From: a virus
Lineage: Duplodnaviria; Caudoviricetes
Virus record (IMG/VR): IMGVR_UViG_3300043410_002285
Coordinates: 1-57,769 of that record
Length of the DNA stretch: 57,769 nt
Reading direction: 5' to 3' (one strand)
In this document: positions 2,637 to 50,836 of the stretch, in pieces
How the letters are laid out: every line of letters starts with the position of its first letter
Numbering within the stretch: position 1 is the stretch's first letter
The notes under the pieces: model-generated
What the model was told of the DNA's origin: nothing
Seen by the model: the letters and a program-made list of their open reading frames with translations, nothing else
Databases searched by the model: none
Made by a program: the position numbers and the translations under genes

Positions 2637-3470
2637 ATGAGTAAAGAAATTTTAAAAGATATCCTGGCTACACCCACATATTGTGGCCAGGAACAATATC
2701 TAATAGCTAAAATAACCAGATATCTAAATGAAAACAATTTAGATTATGTTATTGATGAACATGGAAACATTTATGTAACAAAGGGTGTTGCTGATCATTA
2801 TCCATGTGTTGTAGCACACACAGATACCGTACATAGAATAGTTGATATAGAAATAGTTGAAGATCCCAATGAAGAAGATTTTCTATATGCCGTTGAAAAA
2901 GGTTCTAAAAAAAGAACTGGATGTGGTGGCGATAATAAAGCTGGTGTCTATGTCTGCTTGGAGTTACTTAAACGTGTTGAAATACTTAAAGCAGCTTTTT
3001 TTGTTTCGGAAGAATACGGATGTTTTGGTTCAATACTTTCAGATGAAAGTTTTTTTGAAAATGTGGGTTACGCTTTACAATTTGATGCCCCTGAAAATGA
3101 CTGGGTAACTCATTATTGTAATGGTGTTAAATTATTTGATGAAGAAGGTGACTTCTATAAAACAATCCAACCAATTTTAGAGGATTACATGGGTGATTAT
3201 TCTTTAGGTAGACACCCATACACCGATGTTAGTATTCTTGGTGCTTTCCACGACTTCTCATGTATAAATTATTCAGTTGGTTACTACAACATGCATTCTA
3301 ATATGGAATATGTTAGTGTTGGTTATGTTGGACAAGCCAAAAATATCGCTTTAGAGATCATTTCTTCTCTGGGTAATATAAAGTATCCGTTTATTGATGA
3401 AAACGTCAAAATCGACAAAAAAAGGGCCAAAGAAAGGGCTTTATTATCACTTAATGGATTACGAAGATAA
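2637..3470 (+). CDS. Zn-dependent peptidase, M20/M28/M42 clan
   Basis: AHTDTV, GGDNKAG, SEEYGCFGS, QFD and YYNMH metal-ligand motifs. Confidence 0.85.
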   Translation: MSKEILKDILATPTYCGQEQYLIAKITRYLNENNLDYVIDEHGNIYVTKGVADHYPCVVAHTDTVHRIVDIEIVEDPNEEDFLYAVEKGSKKRTGCGGDNKAGVYVCLELLKRVEILKAAFFVSEEYGCFGSILSDESFFENVGYALQFDAPENDWVTHYCNGVKLFDEEGDFYKTIQPILEDYMGDYSLGRHPYTDVSILGAFHDFSCINYSVGYYNMHSNMEYVSVGYVGQAKNIALEIISSLGNIKYPFIDENVKIDKKRAKERALLSLNGLRR

Positions 3471-18475: not shown

Positions 18476-21400
18476 TTATTTTAATAATAATTTTACTGAA
18501 TATATTATTTCATATTGATCGTTATCACTTGCGTTTATTATTAAGTTAAAATCATCTGGTGAATTATAACTTGTTCTAAATTCACAATTACCCGTTACCC
18601 CACCAATACTTGTTGTTGATGTGTCATCATGAGTAACTAAAGAATTATTATGAGTTGATCTAAATGTGCCAACTCTATGACCACCGCTTGTGATATTTTG
18701 AATAGCATAATCAATAACTAAACCAGCTATATGAGATGCGTTAAATGTTTTAATTATTGTGCTAGTTGGTGACCCACCTGAAACGTTATAAATATCGGAA
18801 TATAAAGCTTGTTTTTGCCCAATTGTTATTGCATTAAAAGCAGATAGATATTTAAAATCATCACTTAAAACCTGGAATCTGTTATTAGCGTAATCCCAAA
18901 TAATAAGATTATTTTGACTTGCAACGTTATCAATATCAACACCAATTGTTATATCATTTGTTAATGCCCCACCACCAGTTAAAGGTGCCTGTACATTTAC
19001 ATTAACATATGTACCATTTGTACCCACATTACCGCTTATACCTGAAGTTCCTGAAGATCCAGCGCTACCGCTTGATCCAGAAGTACCCGAAGAACCTGAT
19101 AATGAACTACCACCATAAGTACCACCAGAACCTGATGTACCTGAAGATCCTGATGTACCAGTTGAACCACTGTCACCTGATGTACCTGATGTACCAGTGC
19201 TACTAGAATTACCTGAAGATCCTGATGTACCAGTTGAACCACTGTCACCTGAAGTTCCATTTGAACCTGTTGATCCTGAATCACCAGATGTACCATTTGA
19301 ACCCGTACTACCTGAATCACCTGAAGAACCTGATGTACCACTACTATTACTTTCACCAGCAGAACCTGAAGTACCAGTTGAACCTGAGCTACCTGAAGAA
19401 CCTGAAGTTCCTGAAGATGTTGATTCACCTGAAGAACCTGATGTACCAGTTGATCCCGAATCACCTGAAGTTCCGTTTGAACCAGTAGAACCTGAGTCAC
19501 CTGAAGAACCAGATGTACCAGTTGATCCGCTATCCCCTGAAGTTCCATTTGAACCAGTTGATCCGCTATCACCACTTGAACCTGAAGAACCTGTTGAACC
19601 AGAGTCACCTGATGAACCATCAGAACCATTTGAACCTGAAGTTCCTGAAAAACCAGACTCACCATTTAAGCCACTTAAACCTGAAGAACCTGAAGAACCC
19701 GTACTACCCGCAGAACCTGATTCACCAGATGTACCATTAGAACCTGTTGATCCAGAATCACCACTTGTTCCTGAAGAACCAGTACTACCTGAATCACCTG
19801 AAGAACCGTCTGAACCTGTTGATCCAGACTCACCGCTCATACCTGAAGTACCAAATGAACCATCAGCTCCTGAGGAACCGTCTGAACCTGTTGATCCTGA
19901 TTCCCCTGAAACACCAGATGAACCATAAGATCCATCTTCACCTGATGTACCTGATGTACCTGTTGAACCACTTTCAGCACTTATACCATTTGTACCTGTT
20001 GAACCAGATTCCCCTGAAGTTCCTGATGTACCTGTTGATGAAGAATCACCTGATGTACCATTAGAACCAGTTGAGCCAGAGTCACCTGATGTACCATTAG
20101 AACCAGTTGAGCCAGAGTCACCTGAAGAACCTGATGTACCCGTACTACCTGAGTCACCACTTGTTCCCGAAGAACCCGTACTACCTGAATCACCTGAAGA
20201 ACCATTAGAACCAGATGAACCGCTTTCGCCTGATGTACCGTCAGAACCTGTAGAACCAGACTCTCCGCTCATACCTGAAGTACCATAAGACCCATCCTCA
20301 CCAGAAGTACCAGATGAACCAGTTGAACCACTTTCACCAGAAACACCGCTTGTACCATAAGAACCATCAGCTCCTGAAGTACCATCAGAACCAGTTGATC
20401 CCGATTCACCTGAAATACCAGAAGTTCCGTTTGAACCATTATCACCTGAAGTACCAGATGTACCTGTTGAACCACTTTCAGCACTTATACCATTTGTACC
20501 CGCTGAACCTGATTCACCAGATGTACCTGATGTACCTGTTGATGAAGAATCACCTGAAGTACCATTTGAACCAGTACTACCAGACTCTCCGCTTATACCT
20601 GAAGTACCATAAGAACCATCAGCTCCTGAAGAACCGTCAGAACCAGTACTTCCACTTTCGCCACTTATACCTGAAGTTCCGTTAGAACCGTCATAACCAC
20701 TACTACCATCACTACCAGTTGATCCTGATTCACCTGAAATACCCGAAGTACCATTTGAACCATCTGCTCCTGAAGAACCGTCAGACCCTGTTGATCCAGA
20801 TTGTCCGCTTACACCAGAAGTTCCATTAGAACCGTTATTACCTGAAGTACCGTTTGTTCCAGAAGAACCTGAAGCTCCGCTTTCACCATTTAAACCACTT
20901 ATACCTGAAGAACCTGAAGAACCAGTTGATCCTGAAGAACCACTTTCTCCTGATTCACCATTTGTACCAAAAGAACCATTTTCACCACTTGTACCTGAAG
21001 AACCAGTAGACCCTGATTCAGCTGAAATACCACTTGTACCAAATGATCCATCATTACCCGATGTACCATCAGAACCAGTACTTCCACTTTCGCCAGAAAC
21101 ACCTGAAGTTCCGTAAGAACCATCTGCTCCTGAAGAGCCATCAGAACCTGTAGATCCGCTCTCACCAGATTGCCCAGAAGTACCGAATGATCCATCATTA
21201 CCACTTGATCCATCGCTTCCTGTTGAACCAGATTCTCCGCTCACACCTGATGTACCAAATGATCCGTTATTACCTGATGTACCATCAGATCCTGTACTAC
21301 CAGATTCCCCTGAAATACCAGAAGTACCTTCAGTACCATCTTCACCCGAAGTTCCTGATGTACCTGTACTACCCGATGCTGCTGACCTACCAGAAGTACC

Positions 21401-24400
21401 TTCAGTACCATCTTCACCCGAAGTTCCTGATGTACCAGTTGAACCAGATTCGCCACTTATACCTGATGTACCATAAGAACCATCTGCACCACTTGATCCG
21501 TCACTACCTGTAGAACCAGATTCACCTGATTGTCCAGAAGTTCCGTTAGAACCATTATTACCTGAAGTACCATTAGATCCTGAAGATCCAGAAGCACCAC
21601 TTTCACCATTTAAACCACTTATACCTGAAGAACCTGAAGAACCTGTACTACCAGATGAACCGCTTTCGCCTGATTGTCCAGAAGTACCAAATGATCCATC
21701 ATTACCCGATGTACCGTCAGATCCTGTACTACCTGACTCACCTGAAACGCCTGAAGTCCCATAAGAACCATCATTACCAGATGTTCCATCGCTACCAGTT
21801 GATCCAGATTCACCACTTATTCCTGAGGTTCCATAAGAACCGTCTGCTCCTGAACTACCATCTGAACCTGTCGAACCAGACTCACCACTTAAACCAGATG
21901 TACCGAACGATCCATCATTACCAGATGTACCATCACTACCTGTGCTACCAGATTCACCTGATTGTCCAGAAGTTCCAAATGACCCATCATTACCAGATGT
22001 ACCATCACTACCTGTGCTACCACTTTCTCCTGATACACCACTTGTACCAGCCGAACCGTCTGCACCTGAAGAACCATCTGAACCCGTTGATCCAGATTCA
22101 CCTGAAATACCAGAGGTTCCAAAAGATCCATCTGCTCCTGAAGAACCATCTGAACCCGTTGATCCAGATTCACCTGAAATACCAGAAGTTCCATAAGAAC
22201 CGTCATCACCTGATGTACCACTTGTACCCGTAGAACCTGAATCCCCTGAAATACCAGAAGTTCCGTTTGAACCATTATCACCTGAAGTCCCATCTGAACC
22301 TGTTGAACCAGATTCTCCCGAAGCACCACTCACACCCCAAGAACCTTCAAAACCTGATGTACCTGAAGTACCATCAGAACCGCTTTCGCCTGAAATACCA
22401 CTTGTACCAAATGAACCGTCTAAACCACTACTACCGTTAGAACCATCAGAACCACTTTCACCTGAAATACCTGAAGTTCCAAATGAACCGTCAGCACCTG
22501 AAGTTCCATCCGAACCAGTACTACCTGATTCACCTGAAATACCACTTGTACCAAATGAACCATCAGCACCAGATGTACCATCTGAACCAGTACTACCTGA
22601 TTCACCAGAAACGCCAGAAGTACCAAATGAACCATCATTACCTGAAGTACCATCTGAACCTGTGCTACCACTTTCCCCTGAAACACCTGAAGTTCCGTTA
22701 TTACCACTAATACCGTCTGAACCATTTGAACCTGAAGTTCCTGAAAAACCAGATTCACCATTTAATCCATTTAAACCAGAAGATCCCGAAGAACCTGTTG
22801 AACCAGCGGAACCGCTTTCACCACTTATACCTGAAGTCCCTGTTGAACCGTTATCACCTGATGTACCATCAGAACCAGTTGATCCACTCTCACCTGAAAC
22901 ACCTGAAGAACCATAGGATCCATCTTCACCTGAAGTACCAGATGTACCCGTGCTACCAGATTCACCACTTATACCTGAAGTTCCAAATAAACCGTCTTCA
23001 CCTGAAGTACCATCTGAACCAGTACTACCTGATTCACCTGAAATACCTGATGTACCATAAGACCCATCAGCACCTGAAGTTCCATCCGAACCAGTTGATC
23101 CCGATTCTCCACTTATACCTGAGGTTCCATAAGACCCATCTTCACCAGAAGTACCTGATGTACCTGTGCTACCACTATCACCACTTATACCTGAAGTTCC
23201 GTTTGAACCATTATCACCAGATGTACCGTTAGAACCTGTTGAACCAGATTCACCTGAAATACCACTTGTACCTGTGGAACCATCTTCCCCTGAAATACCA
23301 CTTGTACCTGTGGAACCTGATTCACCTGATTCACCATTTGTACCAGTACTACCAGAGTCACCACTTGTTCCCGAAGAACCCGTACTACCTGAATCACCTG
23401 AAGAACCATTAGAACCTGATTCCCCGCTTAAACCGCTTGTACCATCAACACCACTCACACCATCAATACCATTTGAACCAGATGTTCCTGAAACACCACT
23501 TGTACCATTAGAACCATCATTACCTGAACTTCCATCAGAACCTGTGCTACCACTTTCTCCACTTATACCTGATGTACCATAAGAACCGTCAGCACCAGAT
23601 GTACCATCTGAACCTGTACTACCTGATTCACCTGAAATACCACTTGTACCAAATGAACCATCAGCACCAGATGTACCATCTGAACCAGTACTACCTGATT
23701 CACCTGAGATACCTGAAGAACCATAAGATCCGTCTTCACCTGATGTACCAGATGTACCAGTACTACCAGACTCTCCGCTTATACCTGAAGTTCCGCTTGA
23801 ACCATTATCACCTGAAGTCCCATCTGAACCAGTTGATCCACTCTCACCACTAGCACCGCTTACACCCCAAGAACCTTCAAAACCCGATGTACCTGAAGTA
23901 CCATCTGAACCAGATTCCCCGCTCATACCTGAAGTTCCGTATGAACCATCAGCTCCTGAAGTACCATCTGAACCAGTTGATCCAGAATCACCACTTATAC
24001 CATTTGTACCTGATGAGCCATTTAAACCACTTGTCCCATCAATACCACTTATTCCATCTAAACCATTAACACCACTTGTACCTGAATTACCAGAAGTTCC
24101 TGAAGAACCATCTTCACCTGAAGAACCTGATTCCCCGCTTATACCTGAGGTTCCATATGAACCATCATTACCACTCATACCAGATGTACCATCTGAACCA
24201 CTTTCACCACTTATACCTGAGGTTCCAGAAGTACCATCATACCCTGAAATACCATCTAAACCATTTATACCTGAAGTACCAGATTCACCAGAAGTTCCTG
24301 AAGAACCATCTTCAGCACTTGATCCTGAAGACCCACTTAAACCACTTGTCCCTGAATTACCTGAAGTACCATTTGTACCATCGTAACCAGAAATACCATC

Positions 24401-26200
24401 CAATCCATTGATACCTGACGTACCATCAGCACCAGTTGTACCAGATGAACCATCAAAACCAGAAATACCATCAAGACCATTTATACCTGACGTACCCGAA
24501 TTACCACTAGTTCCTGAAGAACCTTCCTCACCACTTGTACCATTTGTACCTGTTAAACCTGAAGTTCCAGAATTACCTGAGGTTCCTGAAGAACCATCAA
24601 ATCCACTTATACCATCTAATCCGTTAATACCAGAAGTACCATCGGCACCAGTTGTACCAGATGAACCATCAAAACCAGAAATACCATCTAATCCGTTAAT
24701 ACCAGAGGTACCAGAATTACCTGAAGTACCATCTGAACCCGACTCACCAGAACTACCTGACTCACCAGTTAAACCTGATGTACCAGAATTACCACTTGTA
24801 CCAGATGAACCATCAAAACCAGAAATACCATCAAGACCATTTACACCTGAAGTACCATCAGCACCAGTTGTTCCTGAAGAACCATCAAAACCAGAAATAC
24901 CATCAAGACCATTTACACCGCTCGTACCCGAATTACCCGAAGTACCGTCAGATCCTGATTCACCACTTGAACCCGACTCACCTGTTAAACCTGAAGTTCC
25001 AGAATTACCTGAGGTTCCTGAAGAACCATCGTATCCTGAAACACCGTCAAGACCATTTATACCACTTGTACCATCAGCACCAGTTGTACCAGATGAACCA
25101 TCGAAACCAGAGATACCGTCCAATCCATTAACACCTGAAGTACCTGAATTACCCGAAGTACCATCTGAACCCGACTCACCACTTGAACCCGACTCACCTG
25201 TTAAACCTGAAGTTCCAGAATTACCTGAAGTACCTGAAGAACCGTCAAAACCCGAAATACCATCTAAACCATTTATACCTGACGTACCATCAGCACCAGT
25301 TGTTCCTGAAGATCCGTCAAAACCTGAAATCCCATCAAGGCCGTTTATACCAGATGTTCCTGATTCACCAGAAGTTCCTGAAGAACCAGTTTCACCAGAA
25401 GTTCCTGATTCACCTGTTAAACCTGAAGTTCCTGAGTTACCAGAAGTTCCTGAAGAACCATCGTATCCTGAAATTCCGTCAAGACCATTAACACCTGAAG
25501 TACCATCAGCACCAGTTGTTCCTGAAGAACCATCAAATCCACTTATTCCATCTAATCCGTTTATACCTGAAGTACCCGAATTACCGCTCGTTCCTGAAGA
25601 ACCATCTTCACCACTTGTACCAGTTAACCCAGTAAGACCTGAAGTACCAGAATTACCAGAAGTTCCTGAAGAACCATCGTAACCTGAAACGCCATCTAAA
25701 CCATTAATACCACTTGTACCTGACGAACCGTCAAGACCTGATGTACCATTATAGCCAGAAATACCGTCAAGACCGTCAAGACCTGATGTACCAGAATTAC
25801 CTGAGGTTCCTGATGTACCGTCTGAGCCACTTAACCCTGAATAACCAGAAGTCCCTGAGGTACCAGAGGTACCAATAAATAAAGGTGAATAGGAATATTC
25901 ACCAGTAGTAGCATCAAAAGACACAAAATAACTTGGCGTGTTATTTTGGGTCATACCAGTAACAAATAATTGATTTAATGTGTATATACCCTTAAGATCT
26001 TGGGTATTTTCCCACTGATTAGTGGTGTTGTTATATACTAGAACATCCCCATCATTGGGGCCTGCGATTACAACGTCAGATAAATCTGTTATACCCAGAT
26101 TTTCTATTACGTCTTTTATATTCTGGAAGTTAGCATCTAATTCCGCATAGGACAATGCCCTTCCTAGATTGTCTCTAAGATAAATTGTTACTGTTGCCAT
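18476..26200 (-). CDS. Giant (2574 aa) acidic Gly-X-Y (collagen-like) fibre protein
   Basis: N-terminal LR..LGRALSYAELDANF and DLSDVVI..P.DGDVLVYN..T.QWEN, as in phage fibre N-termini; about 2290 aa of GES/GSD/GTS/GLD triplets; globular C-terminal domain. Confidence 0.82.
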   Translation of the reverse strand: MATVTIYLRDNLGRALSYAELDANFQNIKDVIENLGITDLSDVVIAGPNDGDVLVYNNTTNQWENTQDLKGIYTLNQLFVTGMTQNNTPSYFVSFDATTGEYSYSPLFIGTSGTSGTSGYSGLSGSDGTSGTSGNSGTSGLDGLDGISGYNGTSGLDGSSGTSGINGLDGVSGYDGSSGTSGNSGTSGLTGLTGTSGEDGSSGTSGNSGTSGINGLDGISGFDGSSGTTGADGTSGVNGLDGISGYDGSSGTSGNSGTSGLTGESGTSGETGSSGTSGESGTSGINGLDGISGFDGSSGTTGADGTSGINGLDGISGFDGSSGTSGNSGTSGLTGESGSSGESGSDGTSGNSGTSGVNGLDGISGFDGSSGTTGADGTSGINGLDGVSGYDGSSGTSGNSGTSGLTGESGSSGESGSDGTSGNSGTSGVNGLDGISGFDGSSGTTGADGTSGVNGLDGISGFDGSSGTSGNSGTSGLTGESGSSGESGSDGTSGNSGTSGINGLDGISGFDGSSGTTGADGTSGINGLDGISGFDGSSGTSGNSGTSGLTGTNGTSGEEGSSGTSGNSGTSGINGLDGISGFDGSSGTTGADGTSGINGLDGISGYDGTNGTSGNSGTSGLSGSSGSSAEDGSSGTSGESGTSGINGLDGISGYDGTSGTSGISGESGSDGTSGMSGNDGSYGTSGISGESGSSGEDGSSGTSGNSGTSGVNGLDGISGIDGTSGLNGSSGTNGISGDSGSTGSDGTSGADGSYGTSGMSGESGSDGTSGTSGFEGSWGVSGASGESGSTGSDGTSGDNGSSGTSGISGESGSTGTSGTSGEDGSYGSSGISGESGSTGSDGTSGADGSFGTSGISGESGSTGSDGTSGADGSYGTSGISGESGSTGSDGSSGNDGSNGTSGVSGTSGSNGIDGVSGVDGTSGLSGESGSNGSSGDSGSTGSSGTSGDSGSTGTNGESGESGSTGTSGISGEDGSTGTSGISGESGSTGSNGTSGDNGSNGTSGISGDSGSTGTSGTSGEDGSYGTSGISGESGSTGSDGTSGADGSYGTSGISGESGSTGSDGTSGEDGLFGTSGISGESGSTGTSGTSGEDGSYGSSGVSGESGSTGSDGTSGDNGSTGTSGISGESGSAGSTGSSGSSGLNGLNGESGFSGTSGSNGSDGISGNNGTSGVSGESGSTGSDGTSGNDGSFGTSGVSGESGSTGSDGTSGADGSFGTSGISGESGSTGSDGTSGADGSFGTSGISGESGSDGSNGSSGLDGSFGTSGISGESGSDGTSGTSGFEGSWGVSGASGESGSTGSDGTSGDNGSNGTSGISGDSGSTGTSGTSGDDGSYGTSGISGESGSTGSDGSSGADGSFGTSGISGESGSTGSDGSSGADGSAGTSGVSGESGSTGSDGTSGNDGSFGTSGQSGESGSTGSDGTSGNDGSFGTSGLSGESGSTGSDGSSGADGSYGTSGISGESGSTGSDGTSGNDGSYGTSGVSGESGSTGSDGTSGNDGSFGTSGQSGESGSSGSTGSSGSSGISGLNGESGASGSSGSNGTSGNNGSNGTSGQSGESGSTGSDGSSGADGSYGTSGISGESGSTGTSGTSGEDGTEGTSGRSAASGSTGTSGTSGEDGTEGTSGISGESGSTGSDGTSGNNGSFGTSGVSGESGSTGSDGSSGNDGSFGTSGQSGESGSTGSDGSSGADGSYGTSGVSGESGSTGSDGTSGNDGSFGTSGISAESGSTGSSGTSGENGSFGTNGESGESGSSGSTGSSGSSGISGLNGESGASGSSGTNGTSGNNGSNGTSGVSGQSGSTGSDGSSGADGSNGTSGISGESGSTGSDGSSGYDGSNGTSGISGESGSTGSDGSSGADGSYGTSGISGESGSTGSNGTSGDSSSTGTSGTSGESGSAGTNGISAESGSTGTSGTSGDNGSNGTSGISGESGSTGSDGTSGADGSYGTSGVSGESGSTGSSGTSGEDGSYGTSGMSGESGSTGSDGTSGESGSSGSNGSSGDSGSTGSSGTSGDSGSTGTSGSSGDSGSTGSNGTSGDSGSTGSNGTSGDSSSTGTSGTSGESGSTGTNGISAESGSTGTSGTSGEDGSYGSSGVSGESGSTGSDGSSGADGSFGTSGMSGESGSTGSDGSSGDSGSTGSSGTSGDSGSTGSNGTSGESGSAGSTGSSGSSGLSGLNGESGFSGTSGSNGSDGSSGDSGSTGSSGSSGDSGSTGSNGTSGDSGSTGTSGSSGDSGSTGSNGTSGDSGSTGTSGSSGESTSSGTSGSSGSSGSTGTSGSAGESNSSGTSGSSGDSGSTGSNGTSGDSGSTGSNGTSGDSGSTGTSGSSGNSSSTGTSGTSGDSGSTGTSGSSGTSGSGGTYGGSSLSGSSGTSGSSGSAGSSGTSGISGNVGTNGTYVNVNVQAPLTGGGALTNDITIGVDIDNVASQNNLIIWDYANNRFQVLSDDFKYLSAFNAITIGQKQALYSDIYNVSGGSPTSTIIKTFNASHIAGLVIDYAIQNITSGGHRVGTFRSTHNNSLVTHDDTSTTSIGGVTGNCEFRTSYNSPDDFNLIINASDNDQYEIIYSVKLLLK
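19012..25873 (-). repeat. Coding Gly-X-Y repeat of fibre 2
   Basis: Near-uninterrupted Gly every third residue, D/E-rich; modules GINGLDGISGFDGSSGT and GESGSTGSDGTSGADGSYGTSGIS. Boundaries approximate. Confidence 0.95.
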
Positions 26201-45849: not shown

Positions 45850-47748
45850 TTAGTTTAGTTTTATTGTTTTATTTGTTTTAATTTGGTTTTCTGTTTTTAA
45901 CATACCATAGTATGTACCAGGTATTACATTAGTTAAATCGACAGGGTAAACGTATTTACCTTTGTACATTTTACCACTGAAAACTGTGTGTACTAATTTA
46001 CCATTAGCATCAAAGAATCCAACTAATATTTCACCATCTTCTGGTACACTAAAACTAACATACGCAAAACCTTCTGTCGGGTTAGGTGCCACAATTATTT
46101 CACAATCTTTTGTTGTATTAGCACCACCGTTAATCTTGAATATTTTAACAACACCGTTTGTTGGTGTTATTCTTAGGTCAGTTGCATTTGCATCACCAGC
46201 ATATTTTCTAATAACATATAAAGGACTATGGGTCCAAGTTGTTTGTGCACTTAAAGCTGTAAATTGTAAATTTAAAACAGCATCACCGTTATTAGCCAAA
46301 TATTCATTTTTACTCATATCTGCACCAGCCCATTCAACAACACCATCATTTGGGTTTAAGAATGACATCCAGTTCATGAATTTTTGTTCTGTTTGAATAC
46401 CTTTAAACTCTAATAAATTTTTATCATAAGCTAAAGCTAATTGAATAGAACCAACTTGATCACCAGCGGTTAAAACTTTCATCGGAACATTTACTAATGT
46501 ACCCTCAGTAACTTCAATTTGTGGTAAATTAATTTCAATTGTTGCTGTGGGAAAATCATACTCAACCGTTTCATCGATGATATATTTAGGTGTTTTGCTA
46601 GGATTTAAGATTTCAATAGGAATTGTACGAGCCATATGGAAACCAGTACCGTTAGCATCACCACCACCTAATACATAGAATGTTACAGAGTCTGGTTGGC
46701 CCGCAATAATATCAAATGTTAAGTTAGTTACACCAGCAATTGATGATGTATAGTTAGTTGAAGAGCCATTAATTGTTGCGTATTGAGACGCTGAAAAGAA
46801 TCTAACATCTTTAACACTATTAGGCCATACAGTAAATCTACCCGCTAAACGACCATAAATTGCAGATACGTCAGCAATTGTAATACCATTTGATCCGTTA
46901 ACATCTGATGAGTAGAAATCAAAACCAGTCGGTGTCTCCTCGCCAATAACAAATTTATTTACTTTTTGAGCATCAGCCACAGATACTGTAGCACCAACAG
47001 CCATCGTATCACCCTTCACATATAAATGAGCATCCCAATAAGTTGTATCCAATATTTCATCAAAAGCAAAATAACCAGTAACATCAGTGGTGTCAATCTT
47101 AACTTGAGTCCAAGCACCTGTTGATGTTTTAGGTCTTTTTTCTAAAGCAACTGTAATGTTTTTAGAGCCAGTACCAGTTACGTTTGTGAATCTACCGTGG
47201 TATTTAAGTCTGTTTAATTTGAACTCACCACCATAACTATGTAAAGACAAACCAGTATCCATACCAGCTATTGTAGCCGCATATGATGGGAATGTCATTG
47301 TACCAACAATTTTCAAACTATCAATACTAGTTAAAGCTTGGAATGCCGTTGCATTCTCATGGAAGAATTTTATTTGAAAAGCGGCACCGTTTGCATAAGT
47401 AAACGAGTTGTTGGTACCTGTATACGCTAAGGTAATTGTAATATTACCATTAACTGAGTCAGCTACATATTGCATGTATTGATCAGTTGAACTGTATACC
47501 AAACTAACAATTGGTTTAGCACCACCAAAGGCTACTTTATCGTAGAATACACGAAATTGTAAACCAGCAATTTTAGTCGTTGTTGAATTGTCATAGTAAA
47601 GGTTAGCTAATGTGAAACCTTGTGATTGGGGACCAACATTGTAAGATGAATCAACGACAATCCAATTACCCGTTGAAGGTCCTGTTGTTTGTGCATAGCC
47701 CATTACAGCCAAAAACGCCAGCACTAGCGTTAATAAAAATTTTTTCAT
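45850..47748 (-). CDS. Secreted cohesin/dockerin protein with T9SS type A C-terminal sorting domain
   Basis: Signal peptide; cohesin-like IAGLQFRVFYD and VNVPM..VGSIQLALAYDKNLLEF; dockerin-like DVNGSNGITIADV; CTD VAPNPT...FFDANGKLV...GTYY...KTIK. Confidence 0.85.
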   Translation of the reverse strand: MKKFLLTLVLAFLAVMGYAQTTGPSTGNWIVVDSSYNVGPQSQGFTLANLYYDNSTTTKIAGLQFRVFYDKVAFGGAKPIVSLVYSSTDQYMQYVADSVNGNITITLAYTGTNNSFTYANGAAFQIKFFHENATAFQALTSIDSLKIVGTMTFPSYAATIAGMDTGLSLHSYGGEFKLNRLKYHGRFTNVTGTGSKNITVALEKRPKTSTGAWTQVKIDTTDVTGYFAFDEILDTTYWDAHLYVKGDTMAVGATVSVADAQKVNKFVIGEETPTGFDFYSSDVNGSNGITIADVSAIYGRLAGRFTVWPNSVKDVRFFSASQYATINGSSTNYTSSIAGVTNLTFDIIAGQPDSVTFYVLGGGDANGTGFHMARTIPIEILNPSKTPKYIIDETVEYDFPTATIEINLPQIEVTEGTLVNVPMKVLTAGDQVGSIQLALAYDKNLLEFKGIQTEQKFMNWMSFLNPNDGVVEWAGADMSKNEYLANNGDAVLNLQFTALSAQTTWTHSPLYVIRKYAGDANATDLRITPTNGVVKIFKINGGANTTKDCEIIVAPNPTEGFAYVSFSVPEDGEILVGFFDANGKLVHTVFSGKMYKGKYVYPVDLTNVIPGTYYGMLKTENQIKTNKTIKLN

Positions 47749-47877
47749 GTTAAGTTGTTTTGATTACTTATAAATATTAAAAAAACTCAAAAAAACCATT
47801 TACTTTGAAAAAAAAAGTATTAAAGAAAAAAAATAACTTTTACATTAAATGAAGATATTTATTCGTTAAAAAAGAGT

Positions 47878-48129
47878 ATGAATAAGACAGCTTTTGAATA
47901 TCTTAAAGATTTACAACAACAATTAACAACATTGATTGATGAGCAAGAAAATAAGTTAGATGAAATTGATAATGAAAATTTTAAAGATGATGTATCTGAA
48001 AATATTTTTGGTAGAATTGAGGACGTTCTTTATGAAATAGAAACAATAATGACGGATCTTGAAGAAGGTTATTATAGTGATGATAACAAAGATTTTGATG
48101 AAGATGGAGATGATTTTGAAGAATTTTAA
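47878..48129 (+). CDS. Small highly acidic protein
   Basis: 83 aa, D/E-rich, helical; TATTTAT at 47856. Confidence 0.7.
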   Translation: MNKTAFEYLKDLQQQLTTLIDEQENKLDEIDNENFKDDVSENIFGRIEDVLYEIETIMTDLEEGYYSDDNKDFDEDGDDFEEF

Positions 48130-48145
48130 TTTTTTTTATAAAAAA

Positions 48146-48177
48146 TTTGGTTTTTTGAAAAACTTTACTTACTTTTG
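48146..48177 (+). promoter_or_regulatory. Bacteroidota-type promoter driving the leader + tRNA array
   Basis: TTTG(48146-48149)-N20-TACTTTTG(48170-48177); a second TATATTTG at 48183-48190. Confidence 0.75.
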
Positions 48178-48204
48178 TACTATATATTTGAAATAACAAA
48201 AAAA

Positions 48205-48303
48205 ATGAAAAATATGAACCTACATATTGCAGTGATTAAACCGATGGCGGTGTGCCAATGGTATCCTCGTGCCATATCGGGTTCAGACCAAGTATTTTCA
48301 TAA
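48205..48303 (+). CDS. Leader peptide (32 aa) of putative tRNA-array attenuator
   Basis: MKNMNLHIAVIKPMAVCQWYPRAISGSDQVFS after an A-rich start; codons 6-24 use exactly the 13 amino acids of the downstream tRNAs. Confidence 0.8.
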   Translation: MKNMNLHIAVIKPMAVCQWYPRAISGSDQVFS

Positions 48304-48337
48304 TGTTATAGAGATAAAACTAAAACTACGAAAAACG

Positions 48338-48371
48338 AAGCCCTGAACCAACAAGTTCAGGGTTTTTTTTT
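48338..48371 (+). terminator. Intrinsic terminator (attenuator) between leader and tRNA array
   Basis: AAGCCCTGAAC-CAACAA-GTTCAGGGTTTTTTTTT. CTGAACC (48343-48349) can alternatively pair with GGTTCAG (48280-48286) in the leader ORF. Confidence 0.85.
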
Positions 48372-48373
48372 GT

Positions 48374-48384
48374 TGTTCTTTGAC
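48374..48384 (+). promoter_or_regulatory. boxA-like antitermination element
   Basis: TGTTCTTTGAC resembles rrn boxA (TGCTCTTTAAC) and lies between the terminator and the first tRNA. Confidence 0.55.
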
Positions 48385-48403
48385 GTATTGGTAAAATTAA
48401 AAT

Positions 48404-48478
48404 AGCGTAGTTGGCCAATTGGTAGGCCGCCTCATTTGGGATGAGGACATAGTGCAGGTTCGAGTCCCGTCTACGCTA
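48404..48478 (+). tRNA. tRNA-Pro(TGG) #1, atypical acceptor
   Basis: AGCGTAG/CTACGCT acceptor, GGCC/GGCC D-stem, CCTCA-TTTGGGA-TGAGG anticodon arm, TTCGAGT T-loop. Confidence 0.8.
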
Positions 48479-48484
48479 CTATTT

Positions 48485-48560
48485 CAGGATATGGGGGAGT
48501 CAGGTCGTCCCTACCTGCCTTGGACGCAGGGGATCGCTGGTTCGAATCCAGCTATCCTGA
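48485..48560 (+). tRNA. tRNA-Pro(TGG) #2
   Basis: CAGGATA/TATCCTG-A, CCTGC-CTTGGAC-GCAGG, GCTGG-TTCGAAT-CCAGC. Confidence 0.9.
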
Positions 48561-48566
48561 CACAAT

Positions 48567-48640
48567 GTCTTCGTAGCTCAGTAGGTTAGAGCACCTCACT
48601 TTTAATGAGGGAGTCACAGGTTCGAGTCCTGTCGGGGACA
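48567..48640 (+). tRNA. tRNA-Lys(TTT)
   Basis: GTCTTCG/CGGGGAC, CCTCA-CTTTTAA-TGAGG, ACAGG-TTCGAGT-CCTGT. Confidence 0.95.
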
Positions 48641-48645
48641 CAAAC

Positions 48646-48715
48646 GTATAAGTTGATCGTGGTGGTCGGTTGGTCTGCAAAACCAATGGTGTTGGTTCGA
48701 TTCCAACCTTATACT
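48646..48715 (+). tRNA. tRNA-Cys(GCA)
   Basis: GTATAAG/CTTATAC with U73, TTGGT-CTGCAAA-ACCAA, short D-loop. Confidence 0.88.
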
Positions 48716-48724
48716 CAAATATAC

Positions 48725-48795
48725 ACGGATATGGTGAAATGGTATCATAATGGTCTCCAAAACCACAGTTCAGGGTTCGAATCCTTGTATCCGTG
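48725..48795 (+). tRNA. tRNA-Trp(CCA)
   Basis: ACGGATA/TATCCGT with G73, TGGT-CTCCAAA-ACCA, CAGGG-TTCGAAT-CCTTG. Confidence 0.92.
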
Positions 48796-48802
48796 CTAAA
48801 AT

Positions 48803-48882
48803 GCCCTTGTAGGCGAATGGTATAGCCGCTGGTCTTAGAAACCAGAGCGAAAGCATTGCAGGTTCGAGTCCTGCCAGGGGTA
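48803..48882 (+). tRNA. tRNA-Leu(TAG)
   Basis: GCCCTTG/CAGGGGT-A, CTGGT-CTTAGAA-ACCAG, long variable arm GCGAAAGC. Confidence 0.93.
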
Positions 48883-48887
48883 CACAT

Positions 48888-48960
48888 GCACCTTTAGCTC
48901 AGTTGGTAGAGCGCTGCCCTTACATGGCAGATGTCATAGGTTCGAGTCCTATAGGGTGTA
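48888..48960 (+). tRNA. tRNA-Val(TAC)
   Basis: GCACCTT/AGGGTGT-A, CTGCC-CTTACAT-GGCAG. Confidence 0.95.
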
Positions 48961-48962
48961 CA

Positions 48963-49101
48963 AAGGTTGATCGGGGAATGGTCACATCAATAGTTCGAGA
49001 GTGAATACTGACTGGTGTGATCGGAGTTTACAGGTATTCACCAGAGTAATGCTGATCGTAAAAGAGGATGTCCACTGAACCATCTTCCTCTTCCCTAACT
49101 T
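48963..49101 (+). ncRNA. Unidentified structured RNA (~140 nt) with kissing-loop pseudoknot inside the tRNA array
   Basis: Closing stem AGGTTG..GGGAA / TTCCC-TAACTT; hairpin GGTCACATCA/TGGTGTGATC; hairpin AGTTTAC/GTAATGCT; loop-loop GTGAATAC/GTATTCAC; hairpin GAGGATG/CATCTTC. Confidence 0.7.
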
Positions 49102-49183
49102 GCCAGTATCGCATAGCGGCAATTGCGGCTGACTGTAAATCAGCTCCCTTACGGGTTCGGTGGTTCGAGTCCACCTGCTGGCA
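49102..49183 (+). tRNA. tRNA-Tyr(GTA)
   Basis: GCCAGTA/TGCTGGC-A, GCTGA-CTGTAAA-TCAGC, long variable arm. Confidence 0.95.
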
Positions 49184-49195
49184 CTATTTATTAAT

Positions 49196-49657
49196 ATGAG
49201 AAAATTAATATTAATGATTGTAATGGTTTTATCTACAACGATTTGTAAATCACAAATTGTGATAGATAAAGCTGGGGATGGTTGGGATCTGAGAGCTGAT
49301 AGTGCTTTAGCTATTATCAAACAAACGGATACAACCGCTTATAAACTTGTGTTACGAGTTTGTAATAAAATAACTTTTTGGTCTGGGAACTATTCAACAA
49401 ACGAGGGTTCTAAAGATACAAAAGGGAGTATAATAATATCATCGACAGATGCTAGGGCAAAATCCCTAAACAATCTCGCTGCTGTTATTGTACATGAATC
49501 TTTACACCTTTATCTTAGATATAGGGGTGTCCAAGAATCACCAAAAGAAGAAATACTTTGTTATTCATATGAGTATGACTTTTTAAGGAAAATACCAAAC
49601 GTTGAGCAGTATCTGTTAGATCATTGTTTAAGACAGATAACTTTTCGACAAAATTAA
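49196..49657 (+). CDS. Secreted HExxH metallopeptidase-like protein inside the tRNA array
   Basis: Signal peptide MRKLILMIVMVLSTTICKS; VIVHESLH...EE; own TATTTAT motif at 49185. Confidence 0.75.
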   Translation: MRKLILMIVMVLSTTICKSQIVIDKAGDGWDLRADSALAIIKQTDTTAYKLVLRVCNKITFWSGNYSTNEGSKDTKGSIIISSTDARAKSLNNLAAVIVHESLHLYLRYRGVQESPKEEILCYSYEYDFLRKIPNVEQYLLDHCLRQITFRQN

Positions 49658-49658
49658 T

Positions 49659-49731
49659 GGGGTCATAGCTCAATTGGCTGAGCGCTTCCCTTGCAAGGAA
49701 GAGGATGTGGGTTCGAGTCCCATTGGCTCCA
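49659..49731 (+). tRNA. tRNA-Ala(TGC)
   Basis: GGGGTCA/TGGCTCC-A with G3:U70; CTTCC-CTTGCAA-GGAAG. Confidence 0.95.
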
Positions 49732-49737
49732 CTATAT

Positions 49738-49811
49738 TGTCCTGTAGAATAATGGCAGTTCACCCGACTTTGACTCGGGTCGTCCAGGTTCGAGTCCTGG
49801 CGGGACAACCA
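49738..49811 (+). tRNA. tRNA-Gln(TTG)
   Basis: TGTCCTG/CGGGACA (U1-A72), CCCGA-CTTTGAC-TCGGG, encoded CCA. Confidence 0.93.
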
Positions 49812-49814
49812 AAT

Positions 49815-49889
49815 GGTGAGATAGCTCAGAGGAAGAGCATTCGGCTCATATCCGAAAGGTCGGGATTTCGAAATTCCCTCTCACTACCA
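49815..49889 (+). tRNA. tRNA(CAT): elongator Met or Ile2
   Basis: GGTGAGA/TCTCACT-ACCA, TTCGG-CTCATAT-CCGAA; lacks initiator hallmarks. Confidence 0.88.
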
Positions 49890-49894
49890 TATAT

Positions 49895-49969
49895 GGTTTC
49901 TGTAGCTCAGCTGGTTAGAGTACTTGATTGTGATTCAAGAGGTCGTGGGTTCGAGCCCCACCAGTCACC
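49895..49969 (+). tRNA. tRNA-His(GTG)
   Basis: G-1:C73, CTTGA-TTGTGAT-TCAAG; two acceptor-stem mismatches. Confidence 0.88.
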
Positions 49970-49976
49970 CAAAAAT

Positions 49977-50050
49977 ACCTTCATAGCTCAATGGATGAGA
50001 GCGTTTCGCTACGAACGAAAAGGTTGGGAGTTCGAGTCTCTCTGAAGGTA
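49977..50050 (+). tRNA. tRNA-Arg(ACG)
   Basis: ACCTTCA/TGAAGGT-A, TTTCG-CTACGAA-CGAAA. Confidence 0.94.
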
Positions 50051-50110
50051 CAATAAACCTGTTTTTGCTACGATAAACAAACCATGTTTATTATGCAAAA
50101 TTTAATTTAT

Positions 50111-50184
50111 CGTCCTGTAGCTCAATTGGTTAGAGCGTCTGCCTGATACGCAGAAGGTTAGTGGTTCGAGTCCACTTGGGACGA
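50111..50184 (+). tRNA. tRNA-Ile(GAT)
   Basis: CGTCCTG/TGGGACG-A, TCTGC-CTGATAC-GCAGA. Confidence 0.94.
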
Positions 50185-50272
50185 CTATATGGTATAGATA
50201 ATGTCTATATTAAAATATTGATTATCATTGTTTTATCTCATTTTTTATGGTATATATAAAAAAATATATGTT

Positions 50273-50836
50273 ATGAAAAAAATCCTATTATTAACAATGT
50301 TACTTATTCCATTCCTTAGTAACGCACAAGAATTTAAATTTAGCCCATATGTTGATCAAGTTGTTTCATGTTATGGTAATAATGATGGTTATATACAAGC
50401 TAATTGTAAACCAGAAGGTGAATATGTTTTCACCATAAGTAATAAATCCCTTAAAGATACAAATACCTCGGGTTCATTTTTTAATTTAAAACCTGGTACT
50501 TATACGGTTTGTGCAACAAATGGTGTTTTAAAAAAATGTGAAAAACTAACAGTAACATCACCAAAAAAACTAAACGTGTCTTTTACTGACGAAAAATTAC
50601 CAACACTGTCTGATAATAAAGGTGCTATATCACTAACAATAACTGGTGGTACTACTGAAATACAACCATATTTAGTAAATTGGTTTAATAGTAAGGGTGT
50701 TAGATTAAACACGGATGACACACCATATTCATTGTATATGGAAGATTTACCACCAGATTTATATACAATTAAAATAGAAGATGACCACGGATGTTTTTTA
50801 ACAAAAACACATAGGTTAACAAAACCCAAAAAATAA
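50273..50836 (+). CDS. Secreted SprB-repeat protein
   Basis: Signal peptide MKKILLLTMLLIPFLSNA; VSCYGNNDGYI..F.NLKPGTYTV and GAISLTITGGT..PY..W..L..DLYTIKIED.HGC (two SprB-like repeats). Confidence 0.78.
   Translation: MKKILLLTMLLIPFLSNAQEFKFSPYVDQVVSCYGNNDGYIQANCKPEGEYVFTISNKSLKDTNTSGSFFNLKPGTYTVCATNGVLKKCEKLTVTSPKKLNVSFTDEKLPTLSDNKGAISLTITGGTTEIQPYLVNWFNSKGVRLNTDDTPYSLYMEDLPPDLYTIKIEDDHGCFLTKTHRLTKPKK

What the first reader, a model, noticed from the sequence alone, without database searches (positions are those of the whole stretch)
48146..50184. Leader-peptide attenuator whose codons mirror the whole downstream phage tRNA array
Seen: promoter (48146-48177), then a 32-codon ORF (48205-48303), then a strong terminator (48338-48371), then 14 tRNAs. 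Codons 6-24 (48220-48276) are CTA CAT ATT GCA GTG ATT AAA CCG ATG GCG GTG TGC CAA TGG TAT CCT CGT GCC ATA = LHIAVIKPMAVCQWYPRAI. They contain all 13 amino acids carried by the array (P,K,C,W,L,V,Y,A,Q,M,H,R,I) and none of the 7 that are not. The codons also fit the encoded isoacceptors: CTA for Leu-UAG, CGT for Arg-ACG, AAA for Lys-UUU, CAA for Gln-UUG. Rough odds of no out-of-set residue at uniform frequencies are (13/20)^19, about 3e-4, before requiring all 13; the window was chosen post hoc. Established: trp/his-type attenuators use ribosome stalling on leader codons to block a terminator, and host defences (PrrC, VapC, PARIS-type nucleases) cleave tRNAs. Inference: the leader is a multi-input sensor. 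Shortage of any one host tRNA would stall the ribosome and induce the matching phage tRNA set. I know of no described attenuator of this kind controlling phage tRNAs.
Basis: partly seen in the sequence, partly recalled or inferred. Interest (0 to 1): 0.97.

Follow-up and report, generated by a model that had tools for sequence, protein, structure and literature searches.

The report
Leader-peptide attenuators controlling phage tRNA arrays
A tiny translated reading frame and a transcription stop signal in front of this phage's tRNA genes use just the amino acids whose tRNAs follow, and the same design recurs in other phages, which suggests that these phages switch their tRNA genes on only when those tRNAs run short.

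Summary
The window holds a Bacteroidota-type promoter, a 32-codon ORF (48205-48303), a strong intrinsic terminator (48337-48371) and 14 tRNA genes. Codons 6-24 carry all 13 amino acids served by the array and no other. In related and unrelated viral contigs, and in the cultured Cellulophaga phages phi17:2 and phi4:1, I found 14 independent units with the same layout: promoter, short ORF, terminator, tRNA cluster. Each leader is enriched in the amino acids of its own cluster. In-set residues number 248 of 429 against 155.8 expected. Own array ranks first for 13 of 14 leaders. None of 1,000,000 permutations reaches the observed score, and all 6 hold-out units rank first. Small arrays give clear cases, such as a seven-codon run of only Pro, Gln and Asp codons before a Pro-Gln-Asp-Pro array. 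In most units the terminator ends 8-17 nt before the first tRNA, so the tRNAs need read-through. A ribosome-stall folding model places the matching codons where a stalled ribosome preserves an antiterminator. The best reading is ribosome-mediated attenuation giving demand-controlled tRNA expression. No expression data were available, and seven literature searches found no prior description.

The parts
48146..48177 (+). Candidate sigma-A promoter of Bacteroidota type: -33 TTTG (48146-48149), 20-nt spacer, -7 box TAnnTTTG (48170-48177)
   Evidence: Sequence. Exact box found. The consensus and its position (-12 to -5) come from passages of PMC9723704. This is a consensus match only; no transcription start site data exist.
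48183..48190 (+). Second exact TAnnTTTG box, 14 nt before the start codon (alternative -7 box)
48205..48303 (+). Leader ORF, 32 codons plus stop
   Evidence: Kept in frame and length, without indels, in relatives L002-L018, L023, L025 and L029.
48220..48276 (+). Sensing stretch, codons 6-24: 19 codons, all 13 array amino acids, none other
   Evidence: In the stall model the antiterminator persists while the A site is at codons 1-22 and is lost from codon 23.
48215..48221 (+). Segment 1: 5' strand of the hairpin that encloses the sensing stretch
   Evidence: Minimum-free-energy fold (z = -5.07, 0 of 200 shuffles fold as well). Consensus fold of 6 family members, pairs at columns 21-27 with 85-91.
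48279..48285 (+). Segment 2 (codons 25-27): pairs with segment 1, or alternatively with the terminator 5' arm as antiterminator. It has the same letters as part of the terminator 3' arm.
   Evidence: The dominant partner of the terminator 5' arm when the 3' arm is absent is 48281-48286.
48305..48326 (+). Small conserved hairpin in the spacer between stop codon and terminator
   Evidence: 6 pairs, invariant in 6 sequences.
48337..48371 (+). Intrinsic terminator: 12-bp stem, 6-nt loop, run of 9 T. Segment 3 is 48343-48349 within the 5' arm.
48377..48391 (+). Conserved 15-nt motif 12 nt before the first tRNA; role unknown
   Evidence: One copy in the window. In 13 distinct contexts in the loci it always lies 1-13 nt before a tRNA, sometimes between two tRNAs.
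48404..49184 (+). tRNA genes Pro, Pro, Lys, Cys, Trp, Leu(tag), Val, Tyr
49196..49657 (+). 153-codon ORF inside the array, no Pfam family
49659..50185 (+). tRNA genes Ala, Gln, Met(cat), His, Arg(acg), Ile(gat)

Best explanation
The element is a ribosome-mediated (leader-peptide) transcription attenuator that controls a phage tRNA array. Transcription starts at the Bacteroidota-type promoter and a ribosome translates the 32-codon leader. If every codon of the sensing stretch is decoded promptly, the ribosome reaches the last third of the ORF. There it occupies segment 2 (48279-48285), the terminator hairpin (48337-48371) forms, and transcription stops 33 nt before the first tRNA gene. If any tRNA species served by the array is scarce, uncharged or damaged, the ribosome halts upstream. 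Segment 2 then stays free and pairs with the terminator's 5' arm, and RNA polymerase reads through into the tRNA genes. The product of the array relieves the stall, so the circuit is a negative feedback that supplies phage tRNAs on demand. With 13 amino acids in one stretch it works as an OR gate over 13 inputs. Shown here: the anatomy, its conservation, and the co-variation of leader codons with the downstream tRNA set in 14 independent units. Inferred: translation of the leader, the antiterminator switch, the direction of the response, and what causes tRNA shortage during infection.
For: Anatomy in the window.

Recurrence: the same layout of promoter, short ORF, terminator and tRNA cluster occurs in related and unrelated viral contigs and in the cultured Cellulophaga phages phi17:2 and phi4:1.

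Co-variation over 14 independent units:
- In-set residues are 248 of 429 against 155.8 expected from pooled leader composition.
- On average 98.7% of array types are present in the array's own leader.
- Own array ranks 1st of 14 for 13 leaders and 2nd for one.
- 0 of 1,000,000 permutations reach the observed sum of z (38.3; largest permuted 27.5).
- All 6 units found after the hypothesis was fixed rank 1st.
- With swaps restricted to units of the same genome, the true arrangement is the best of 576 (13 units).

Within the window's own family, L023 lost the Ala tRNA together with all 3 Ala codons, and gained Ser(gct) together with a Ser AGT codon in the core.

Small arrays:
- A 7-codon run of only Pro, Gln and Asp codons precedes Pro-Gln-Asp-Pro (unit F).
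- An 11-codon run of only Ile, Glu, Ala, Gly and Tyr codons precedes Tyr-Glu-Ile(tat)-Gly-Ala, with both Ile codons ATA (unit H3).
- An 11-codon run of only Gln, Arg, Leu, His, Glu and Pro codons precedes Pro-Glu-Gln-His-Leu-Leu-Arg (unit I, phi17:2).

Prediction borne out: Ser-rich or Met-bearing leaders whose arrays seemed to lack these tRNAs turned out to have Ser(tga) or Met(cat) genes that ARAGORN missed at default settings.

Dependence on read-through: the terminator stem ends 8-17 nt before the first tRNA in 10 of 14 units listed. An exact -7 box lies within 60 nt upstream of the start codon in 10 of 14 units, but between terminator and tRNA in only 1 of 14.

Stall model:
- In-set codons lie where a stalled ribosome leaves the terminator 5' arm paired upstream; the circular-shift null reaches the observed value in 363 of 100,000 trials.
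- The longest in-set run ends within -3 to +1 codons of the modelled loss of the antiterminator in 8 of 12 units.
- The partner of the 5' arm lies in the last third of the ORF in 9 of 11 units.

Coding signature in the family: 14, 7 and 7 variable sites at codon positions 3, 1 and 2, with no indels and the stop kept in place.

Host machinery: passages of PMC9723704 report the TAnnTTTG box and predicted leader-peptide attenuation upstream of amino-acid biosynthesis operons in a Flavobacterium.
Against: - Translation, termination and read-through are therefore unmeasured.
- Pairing of the terminator 5' arm with upstream sequence is not stronger than in dinucleotide shuffles for most units: only 3 of 11 have 3 or fewer of 100 shuffles reaching the observed value. 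In the window 55 of 100 shuffles do.
- The model is thermodynamic, assumes a footprint of my choosing, and shows no positional effect in unit B.
- Covariation in the family fold is minimal: 1 of 51 pairs changes on both sides.
- Out-of-set codons sit inside the modelled sensing zone: Asn at codons 3 and 5 in the window, and Thr at codon 23 in L014 and L029.
- Most tRNA types are represented by one codon, whereas classical attenuators use runs.
- Codon-box matches are good but not perfect: Leu 15 of 20, Arg 7 of 8, Ser 16 of 21, Ile 18 of 24.
- Unit E has an exact -7 box downstream of its terminator.
- The window carries an unexplained conserved motif between terminator and first tRNA that could be a promoter of another kind.
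- Several tRNA cluster heads have no such unit, and a crAss-like phage has none at 0 of 6 heads.
Confidence: 0.75

Rival explanations
1. Same sensor, opposite or different output. Fluent translation of the leader would be needed for read-through, for example by keeping RNA polymerase coupled or by blocking Rho. Alternatively, leader translation would control processing or stability of the tRNA precursor rather than termination. The circuit would then be a positive feedback or a check that the tRNAs work.
For: The co-variation shows only that leader decoding is linked to the array, not the sign of the response. Free-RNA folds differ between units: in the model some terminate without a ribosome and others read through.
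Against: The stop codon lies 19-34 nt before the terminator stem. A terminating ribosome would therefore hardly reach the terminator, but it would cover the modelled antiterminator strand. In-set codons end just before that strand, as in classical attenuators where stalling gives read-through. Positive feedback on tRNA supply has no obvious benefit.
Confidence: 0.1
2. Promoter, ORF and terminator form an autonomous small gene (a micro-protein or a structured small RNA). The tRNAs are transcribed from another promoter downstream, for example the conserved 15-nt motif at 48377-48391.
For: The hairpin-plus-terminator RNA folds far better than shuffles. The motif always lies 1-13 nt before a tRNA. 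Unit E has a -7 box after its terminator.
Against: This reading gives no reason for leader residues to track the downstream tRNA set across 14 units. The peptide sequence itself is poorly conserved within the family, with 12 non-synonymous against 4 synonymous codon differences between the window and L023, while frame and length are kept. In 10 of 14 units only 8-17 nt separate terminator and tRNA, the motif is absent from the units found in L019, L024, L030, L034 and phi17:2 (for the first three; the last two were fetched after that scan and were searched only with the stricter pattern), and the motif occurs once in 57.8 kb. No Rfam family matches above threshold.
Confidence: 0.05
3. Chance composition in a post hoc chosen stretch.
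For: The 19-codon core was picked after looking. Runs of 19 or more in-set residues occur in 13 of 207 small ORFs of the window.
Against: Full coverage of 13 types in one run occurs in 72 of 2,000,000 random peptides. The association also replicates in independent and hold-out units.
Confidence: 0.01

Closest known systems
Multivalent leader-peptide attenuators of branched-chain amino-acid operons (ilvGMEDA and ilvBN leaders of enterobacteria; recalled from established knowledge, not from a call)
   Same: A short leader ORF whose codons for several amino acids are read by a ribosome that decides between an antiterminator and an intrinsic terminator. The leader length is similar, about 32 codons.
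   Different: Those operons sense 2-3 amino acids through runs of codons and control biosynthetic enzymes. This element carries up to 13-14 types, mostly as single codons, and the controlled genes are the tRNAs themselves, in a phage.
Classical trp, his, phe, thr and leu leaders, and the pheST attenuator (recalled). Rfam Thr_leader gave only a sub-threshold match at 48300-48371 (23.2 bits against a gathering score of 55).
   Same: Four-segment topology in the window's family: segment 1 with 2, 2 with 3, and 3 with 4. Regulatory codons lie just upstream of the antiterminator strand.
   Different: There is no sequence or model membership, and the regulated genes and host group differ. Several units in other phages appear to lack the segment 1-2 hairpin, because in the model the free RNA reads through.
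Predicted leader-peptide attenuators upstream of amino-acid operons in Flavobacterium psychrophilum (PMC9723704, passages seen)
   Same: The same host phylum, judged by promoter type, and the same proposed mechanism.
   Different: Those are cellular and control amino-acid biosynthesis. tRNA genes are not mentioned in the passages I saw.
T-box riboswitches
   Same: They sense the state of a specific tRNA and switch between terminator and antiterminator.
   Different: T-boxes bind the tRNA directly, without translation, and control aminoacyl-tRNA synthetase and amino-acid genes. No T-box match was found at E up to 10.

Membership tests
Ribosome-mediated (leader-peptide) transcription attenuator | Promoter followed by a short ORF upstream of the regulated genes | tested here: met
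   In the automatic scan, every tRNA cluster head with a terminator within 160 nt upstream also had a 19-40 codon ATG ORF ending within 70 nt of the stem. The exception is one GTG-start unit in phi17:2 and phi4:1.
Ribosome-mediated (leader-peptide) transcription attenuator | Leader enriched in codons whose decoding reports on the product of the regulated genes | tested here: met
   in-set residues 248 of 429 against 155.8 expected, and 0 of 1,000,000 permutations reach the observed score.
Ribosome-mediated (leader-peptide) transcription attenuator | Intrinsic terminator between leader and regulated genes | tested here: met
   stems of 8-14 bp, T runs of 6-9, lying 19-34 nt after the stop codon.
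Ribosome-mediated (leader-peptide) transcription attenuator | Mutually exclusive antiterminator whose upstream strand is covered by a ribosome that finishes the leader | tested here: inconclusive
   The position of the partner strand and of the in-set codons fits. Pairing strength does not exceed shuffles in most units, and covariation is minimal.
Ribosome-mediated (leader-peptide) transcription attenuator | Leader is translated, and read-through rises when the cognate aminoacyl-tRNA is limiting | not testable with these tools
Only indirect coding signatures are available.
Ribosome-mediated (leader-peptide) transcription attenuator | Regulated genes are amino-acid biosynthesis, transport or aminoacyl-tRNA synthetase genes, as in all described cases I know (recalled) | tested here: not met
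   The downstream genes are tRNA genes. I therefore file this as a new variant, not as a member of a described leader family.
T-box riboswitch | Match to the T-box covariance model (specifier loop, T-box sequence) | tested here: not met
   No T-box hit at E up to 10 in 47700-50500.
Any curated RNA family (Rfam 15) | Match above the gathering score in 48146-48400 | tested here: not met
   Only sub-threshold matches (ohsC, Thr_leader, MicC), all lying on the terminator.

The most novel reading that the evidence does not exclude
Phage tRNA arrays in a broad group of Bacteroidota phages are built from modules. Each module is governed by its own leader-peptide attenuator, which reads the very tRNA species the module encodes. 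Each block of phage tRNAs is therefore made only when one of those species becomes limiting. This would be a product-sensing, multi-input feedback on tRNA genes, which to my knowledge has not been described in any organism. In its boldest form the circuit is a counter-measure that detects host tRNA depletion or cleavage by anticodon nucleases and replaces exactly the missing species.
Probability: 0.65. Interest if true: 0.93.

Novelty: new variant of a known kind. Interest (0 to 1): 0.9.

Why it matters
How phage tRNA genes are expressed, and why phages carry particular sets of them, are open questions. A leader that spells out the tRNA set of the array behind it implies three things. Phage tRNA supply would be regulated by demand rather than being constitutive. 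Arrays would be organised in separately sensed modules. The selective value of these tRNAs would lie in relieving decoding shortages during infection.

The finding also gives a directly testable system in cultured phages, Cellulophaga phages phi17:2 and phi4:1 on C. baltica. It offers a natural design for multi-input sensors of tRNA availability. It gives a practical annotation rule: tiny ORFs with terminators in front of tRNA clusters are regulatory, and their codons predict tRNA genes that gene finders miss.

Tried and rejected
- Known RNA families: an Rfam scan of 47700-50500 at E up to 10 found only the 14 tRNAs and sub-threshold hits.
- Close DNA relatives of the leader in 50,697 deposited phage records: none. 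There were only 36-46 nt chance-level matches.
- Antiterminator strength: pairing of the terminator 5' arm with upstream RNA is not above dinucleotide shuffles in most units. I therefore rest the structural argument on position, not on strength.
- Codon-level matching is suggestive only. My own one-sided Fisher arithmetic on the Arg codons (CGN against AGR, by acg or tct isoacceptor) gives about 0.07.
- A proteome background from window ORFs of 200 aa or more was skewed by two giant Ser/Gly/Thr-rich ORFs. I report the pooled-leader background and permutations instead.
- The crAss-like Kehishuvirus tikkala (L033) has 0 of 6 cluster heads with such a unit, so the design is not universal in Bacteroidota phages.
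- Many internal cluster heads lack a unit. Examples are Ala at 49659 in the window, 5 of 7 heads in L020, 3 of 5 in L028, and all heads in L035, where endonuclease-like genes precede the tRNAs.
- In L026 an HNH endonuclease gene sits between the terminator and the array.
- The conserved 15-nt motif did not fit the sigma-A consensus when I read it by eye, and it stays unexplained.
- Rows dropped from the counts: near-identical family members (L002-L018, L025, L021/L022 duplicates, phi4:1, and the two L034 homologues of units H and H2) were each counted once through one representative.
- Supplements of papers were not opened. Supplementary tables of PMC9723704 may list the predicted attenuators.
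- Absence from print rests on searches, and on passages of PMC6409571 (no occurrence of leader, terminator or promoter).

Full report
**What is in the window.** The window is a 57.8-kb viral contig, estimated at about 19% of a genome.

- Between an 83-codon acidic ORF (47878-48129) and the tRNA genes lie a Bacteroidota-type promoter match, an A-rich 5' region and an ATG ORF of 32 codons (48205-48303). The promoter match is TTTG, 20 nt, then an exact TAnnTTTG box at 48170-48177, with a second exact box at 48183-48190.
- After the ORF come a small hairpin, a 12-bp stem with nine T (48337-48371), a 15-nt conserved motif (48377-48391) and then 14 tRNA genes (48404-50185). A 153-codon ORF interrupts the tRNA genes once.
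- The 191-nt leader RNA folds far better than shuffles (z = -5.07; 0 of 200 shuffles fold as well).
- Neighbouring proteins carry a cohesin domain with a sub-threshold Por secretion tail and a sub-threshold SprB repeat. These fit a Bacteroidota host.
- Passages of PMC9723704 give TAnnTTTG at -12 to -5 as the sigma-A box in a Flavobacterium. They also report predicted leader-peptide attenuation upstream of amino-acid operons there.

**Is the observation more than chance?** Codons 6-24 are a single run of 19 in-set residues containing all 13 array types.

- In-set residues are common in junk frames of this AT-rich DNA (76%), so long runs alone are not rare: 13 of 207 small ORFs have one.
- Complete coverage is rare. 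Only this ORF among the 207 reaches it, and the next best holds 9 types.
- Random peptides reach it in 72 of 2,000,000 trials. Shuffles of the leader's own residues reach it in 115 of 200,000.
- The flanks of the ORF contain out-of-set residues, so the core was delimited post hoc.

**Relatives of the same family.**

- I found relatives by searching viral contigs with the upstream protein, with a degenerate pattern of the leader and with a 21-nt stretch of the first tRNA.
- These searches gave seven contigs, ten stretches, seven of them in the contigs and twenty stretches, nine of them in the contigs.
- The leader is kept with the same frame, length and stop position, without indels.
- Among four distinct versions the variable sites number 14, 7 and 7 at codon positions 3, 1 and 2.
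- The peptide itself drifts: 12 non-synonymous against 4 synonymous codon differences separate the window from L023. This is what one expects of a regulatory leader rather than a functional peptide.
- In L004-L008 a 1.4-kb insert separates the upstream gene from the leader. The leader, with its own promoter, stays directly before the array.
- L023 is the informative member. Its array lacks tRNA-Ala and has Ser(gct). Its leader has none of the three Ala codons and has Ser (AGT) in the core. Its in-set residues are 27 of 31 and 13 of 13 types are present.
- Against a perfect mirror, L014 and L029 carry Thr at codon 23 with no Thr tRNA detected by ARAGORN or Rfam.

**Unrelated leaders.**

- Further units with the same layout turned up upstream of other tRNA clusters, both in the fetched contigs and in other places of the same contigs. 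I found them first by eye and then with an automatic scan that knew nothing of the tRNA identities.
- The cultured Cellulophaga phage phi17:2 (NC_021798) has three such units, and phi4:1 has the same layout.
- Examples:
  - A seven-codon run made only of Pro, Gln and Asp codons precedes Pro-Gln-Asp-Pro.
  - Eleven codons made only of Ile, Glu, Ala, Gly and Tyr precede Tyr-Glu-Ile(tat)-Gly-Ala. Both Ile codons are ATA, the codon read by that isoacceptor.
  - Eleven codons made only of Gln, Arg, Leu, His, Glu and Pro precede Pro-Glu-Gln-His-Leu(tag)-Leu(taa)-Arg(acg). Their Leu codons come from both boxes and the Arg codon is CGT.
  - The next phi17:2 unit uses AGA and is followed by Arg(tct).
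- Two genomes carry complementary pairs of leaders and arrays (L020, L022/L028).

**Statistics.** For 14 independent units, one representative per homologous leader:

| Measure | Result |
|---|---|
| In-set residues | 248 of 429 (155.8 expected from pooled leader composition) |
| z for own array | at least 2.0 in every unit |
| Array types present in own leader | 98.7% on average |
| Rank of own array among 14 | 1st for 13 leaders, 2nd for one |
| Random permutations reaching the observed sum of z | 0 of 1,000,000 (38.3 observed, largest permuted 27.5) |
| Hold-out units (found after the idea was fixed) | 6 of 6 rank 1st |

- Restricting swaps to units of the same genome removes composition and ancestry as explanations. 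The true arrangement is then the best of 576.
- Leaders that seemed to contain unexplained Ser or Met led to tRNA genes missed at default ARAGORN settings. These were found at a relaxed threshold, and some were also seen by Rfam.
- One such Ser(tga) gene is annotated as a protein-coding gene in phi17:2.

**Mechanism.**

- The terminator stem ends only 8-17 nt before the first tRNA in 10 of 14 units, and 38 nt before it in the window.
- An exact -7 box lies upstream of the leader in 10 of 14 units. It lies between terminator and tRNA in only one, unit E. The tRNAs therefore depend on read-through.
- In the window's family the RNA has the textbook four segments:
  - Segment 1 (48215-48221) pairs with segment 2 (48279-48285).
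  - Segment 2 has the letters of the terminator's 3' arm and can pair with its 5' arm.
- I modelled a ribosome as a 29-nt block at each A-site codon, with the terminator's 3' arm not yet transcribed.
  - In the window the 5' arm stays paired upstream (probability about 0.5-0.6) for A-site codons 1-22. This falls to about 0.1 from codon 23.
  - Across units, in-set codons lie preferentially in the zone where the antiterminator survives (circular-shift null 363 of 100,000).
  - The longest in-set run ends within -3 to +1 codons of the modelled switch point in 8 of 12 units. Distances to the stop codon correlate (Spearman 0.61, p = 0.036).
- Weak points:
  - Pairing strength is not above shuffles in most units.
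  - Covariation is minimal.
  - One unit shows no positional effect.
  - The footprint and the equilibrium treatment are my assumptions.

**Interpretation.**

- The best-supported reading is ribosome-mediated attenuation in which slow decoding of any sensed codon gives read-through into the tRNA genes.
- The sensed quantity is the availability of the same tRNA species that the array encodes, so the circuit is a negative feedback that supplies tRNAs on demand.
- Whether the natural trigger is cleavage of tRNAs by host defence, loss of host tRNAs during infection, a mismatch of codon usage or amino-acid starvation cannot be told from sequence.
- Rivals that keep the sensor but change the output, or that treat the unit as an autonomous small gene, are listed with their odds. 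Chance is excluded for practical purposes.

**Comparison with what is known, and novelty.**

- The element works like the multivalent leader-peptide attenuators of amino-acid operons and meets their anatomical criteria.
- It matches no Rfam leader or T-box model.
- It differs in three ways: what it controls (tRNA genes), where it occurs (phages), and how many inputs it takes (up to 13-14 amino acids, mostly single codons).
- Seven full-text searches found no description of leader peptides or attenuators before phage or cellular tRNA genes.
- A survey of viral tRNA clusters that includes the Cellulophaga phages does not use the words leader, terminator or promoter in its main text.
- I saw search listings and the quoted passages only. 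Subscription literature is not covered.

**Limits.**

- All units come from phages with Bacteroidota-type promoter boxes.
- A crAss-like phage has none.
- Many internal cluster heads lack a unit.
- No expression data could be consulted.

Noticed in passing
window 48377-48391; also L020 792-806 and 9919-9933, L022 6833-6847 and 10884-10898, L023 (reverse strand) and others: A conserved 15-nt motif always lies 1-13 nt before a tRNA 5' end, in front of different tRNAs (Pro, Ile, Ser, Thr). It occurs after terminators and also filling the spacer between two tRNAs. There is one copy in the 57.8-kb window. It could be a processing signal, a special promoter or a cassette boundary; this is undecided.
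   Followed up: partly
L004 4313-4657 and 5598-5672 (also L005-L008, L029 8890-8962): Relatives carry a suppressor-type tRNA with anticodon CTA. Next to the tRNA region they have a PTH2 peptidyl-tRNA hydrolase-like ORF with an in-frame TAG at codon 5. The Pfam match (27.5 bits, cut-off 23) starts at residue 8, upstream of the next ATG. This hints at TAG read as sense in these phages.
   Followed up: partly
L031 5254-5355 (phi17:2 gp078) and L032 6441-6542 (phi4:1 gp076): The annotated hypothetical protein in phi17:2 overlaps a class II tRNA-Ser(tga) gene that ARAGORN finds only at a relaxed threshold (L031 5249-5332), so that CDS is probably spurious. I assume the same for phi4:1 from the parallel annotation; I did not check it.
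   Followed up: partly
L026 2502-3146; L035 about 1880-2140 and 3030-3300: An HNH endonuclease gene (Pfam HNH 21.7 bits, cut-off 21.4) is inserted between a leader-terminator unit and its Gln-Pro-Asp-Pro array. Endonuclease-like ORFs also directly precede other tRNAs in the same contig. These look like homing genes that break up the units.
   Followed up: partly
window 48962-49101: A spacer of about 140 nt between tRNA-Val and tRNA-Tyr is kept at the same length in relatives (L002, L014, L023, L029). It has no tRNA or Rfam match.
   Followed up: no
window 49196-49657: A 153-codon ORF sits inside the tRNA array. It has a hydrophobic N-terminus and an HExxH-like motif, read by eye, and no Pfam family.
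   Followed up: no
L004 5290-5460: A structured-looking stretch of about 170 nt upstream of tRNA-Cys ends in a T-arm-like and acceptor-like sequence. It has no Rfam match at E up to 0.01.
   Followed up: partly
window 3497-18406 and 18476-26200, minus strand: Two giant ORFs of 4969 and 2574 codons dominate the amino-acid composition of the window's long ORFs, which is Ser 20%, Gly 17% and Thr 10%.
   Followed up: no
L031 2389 (phi17:2 first unit): The start codon lies 4 nt after the exact -7 box. If the box sits at -12 to -5 as in Flavobacterium, the leader mRNA would be leaderless, starting at the AUG.
   Followed up: no
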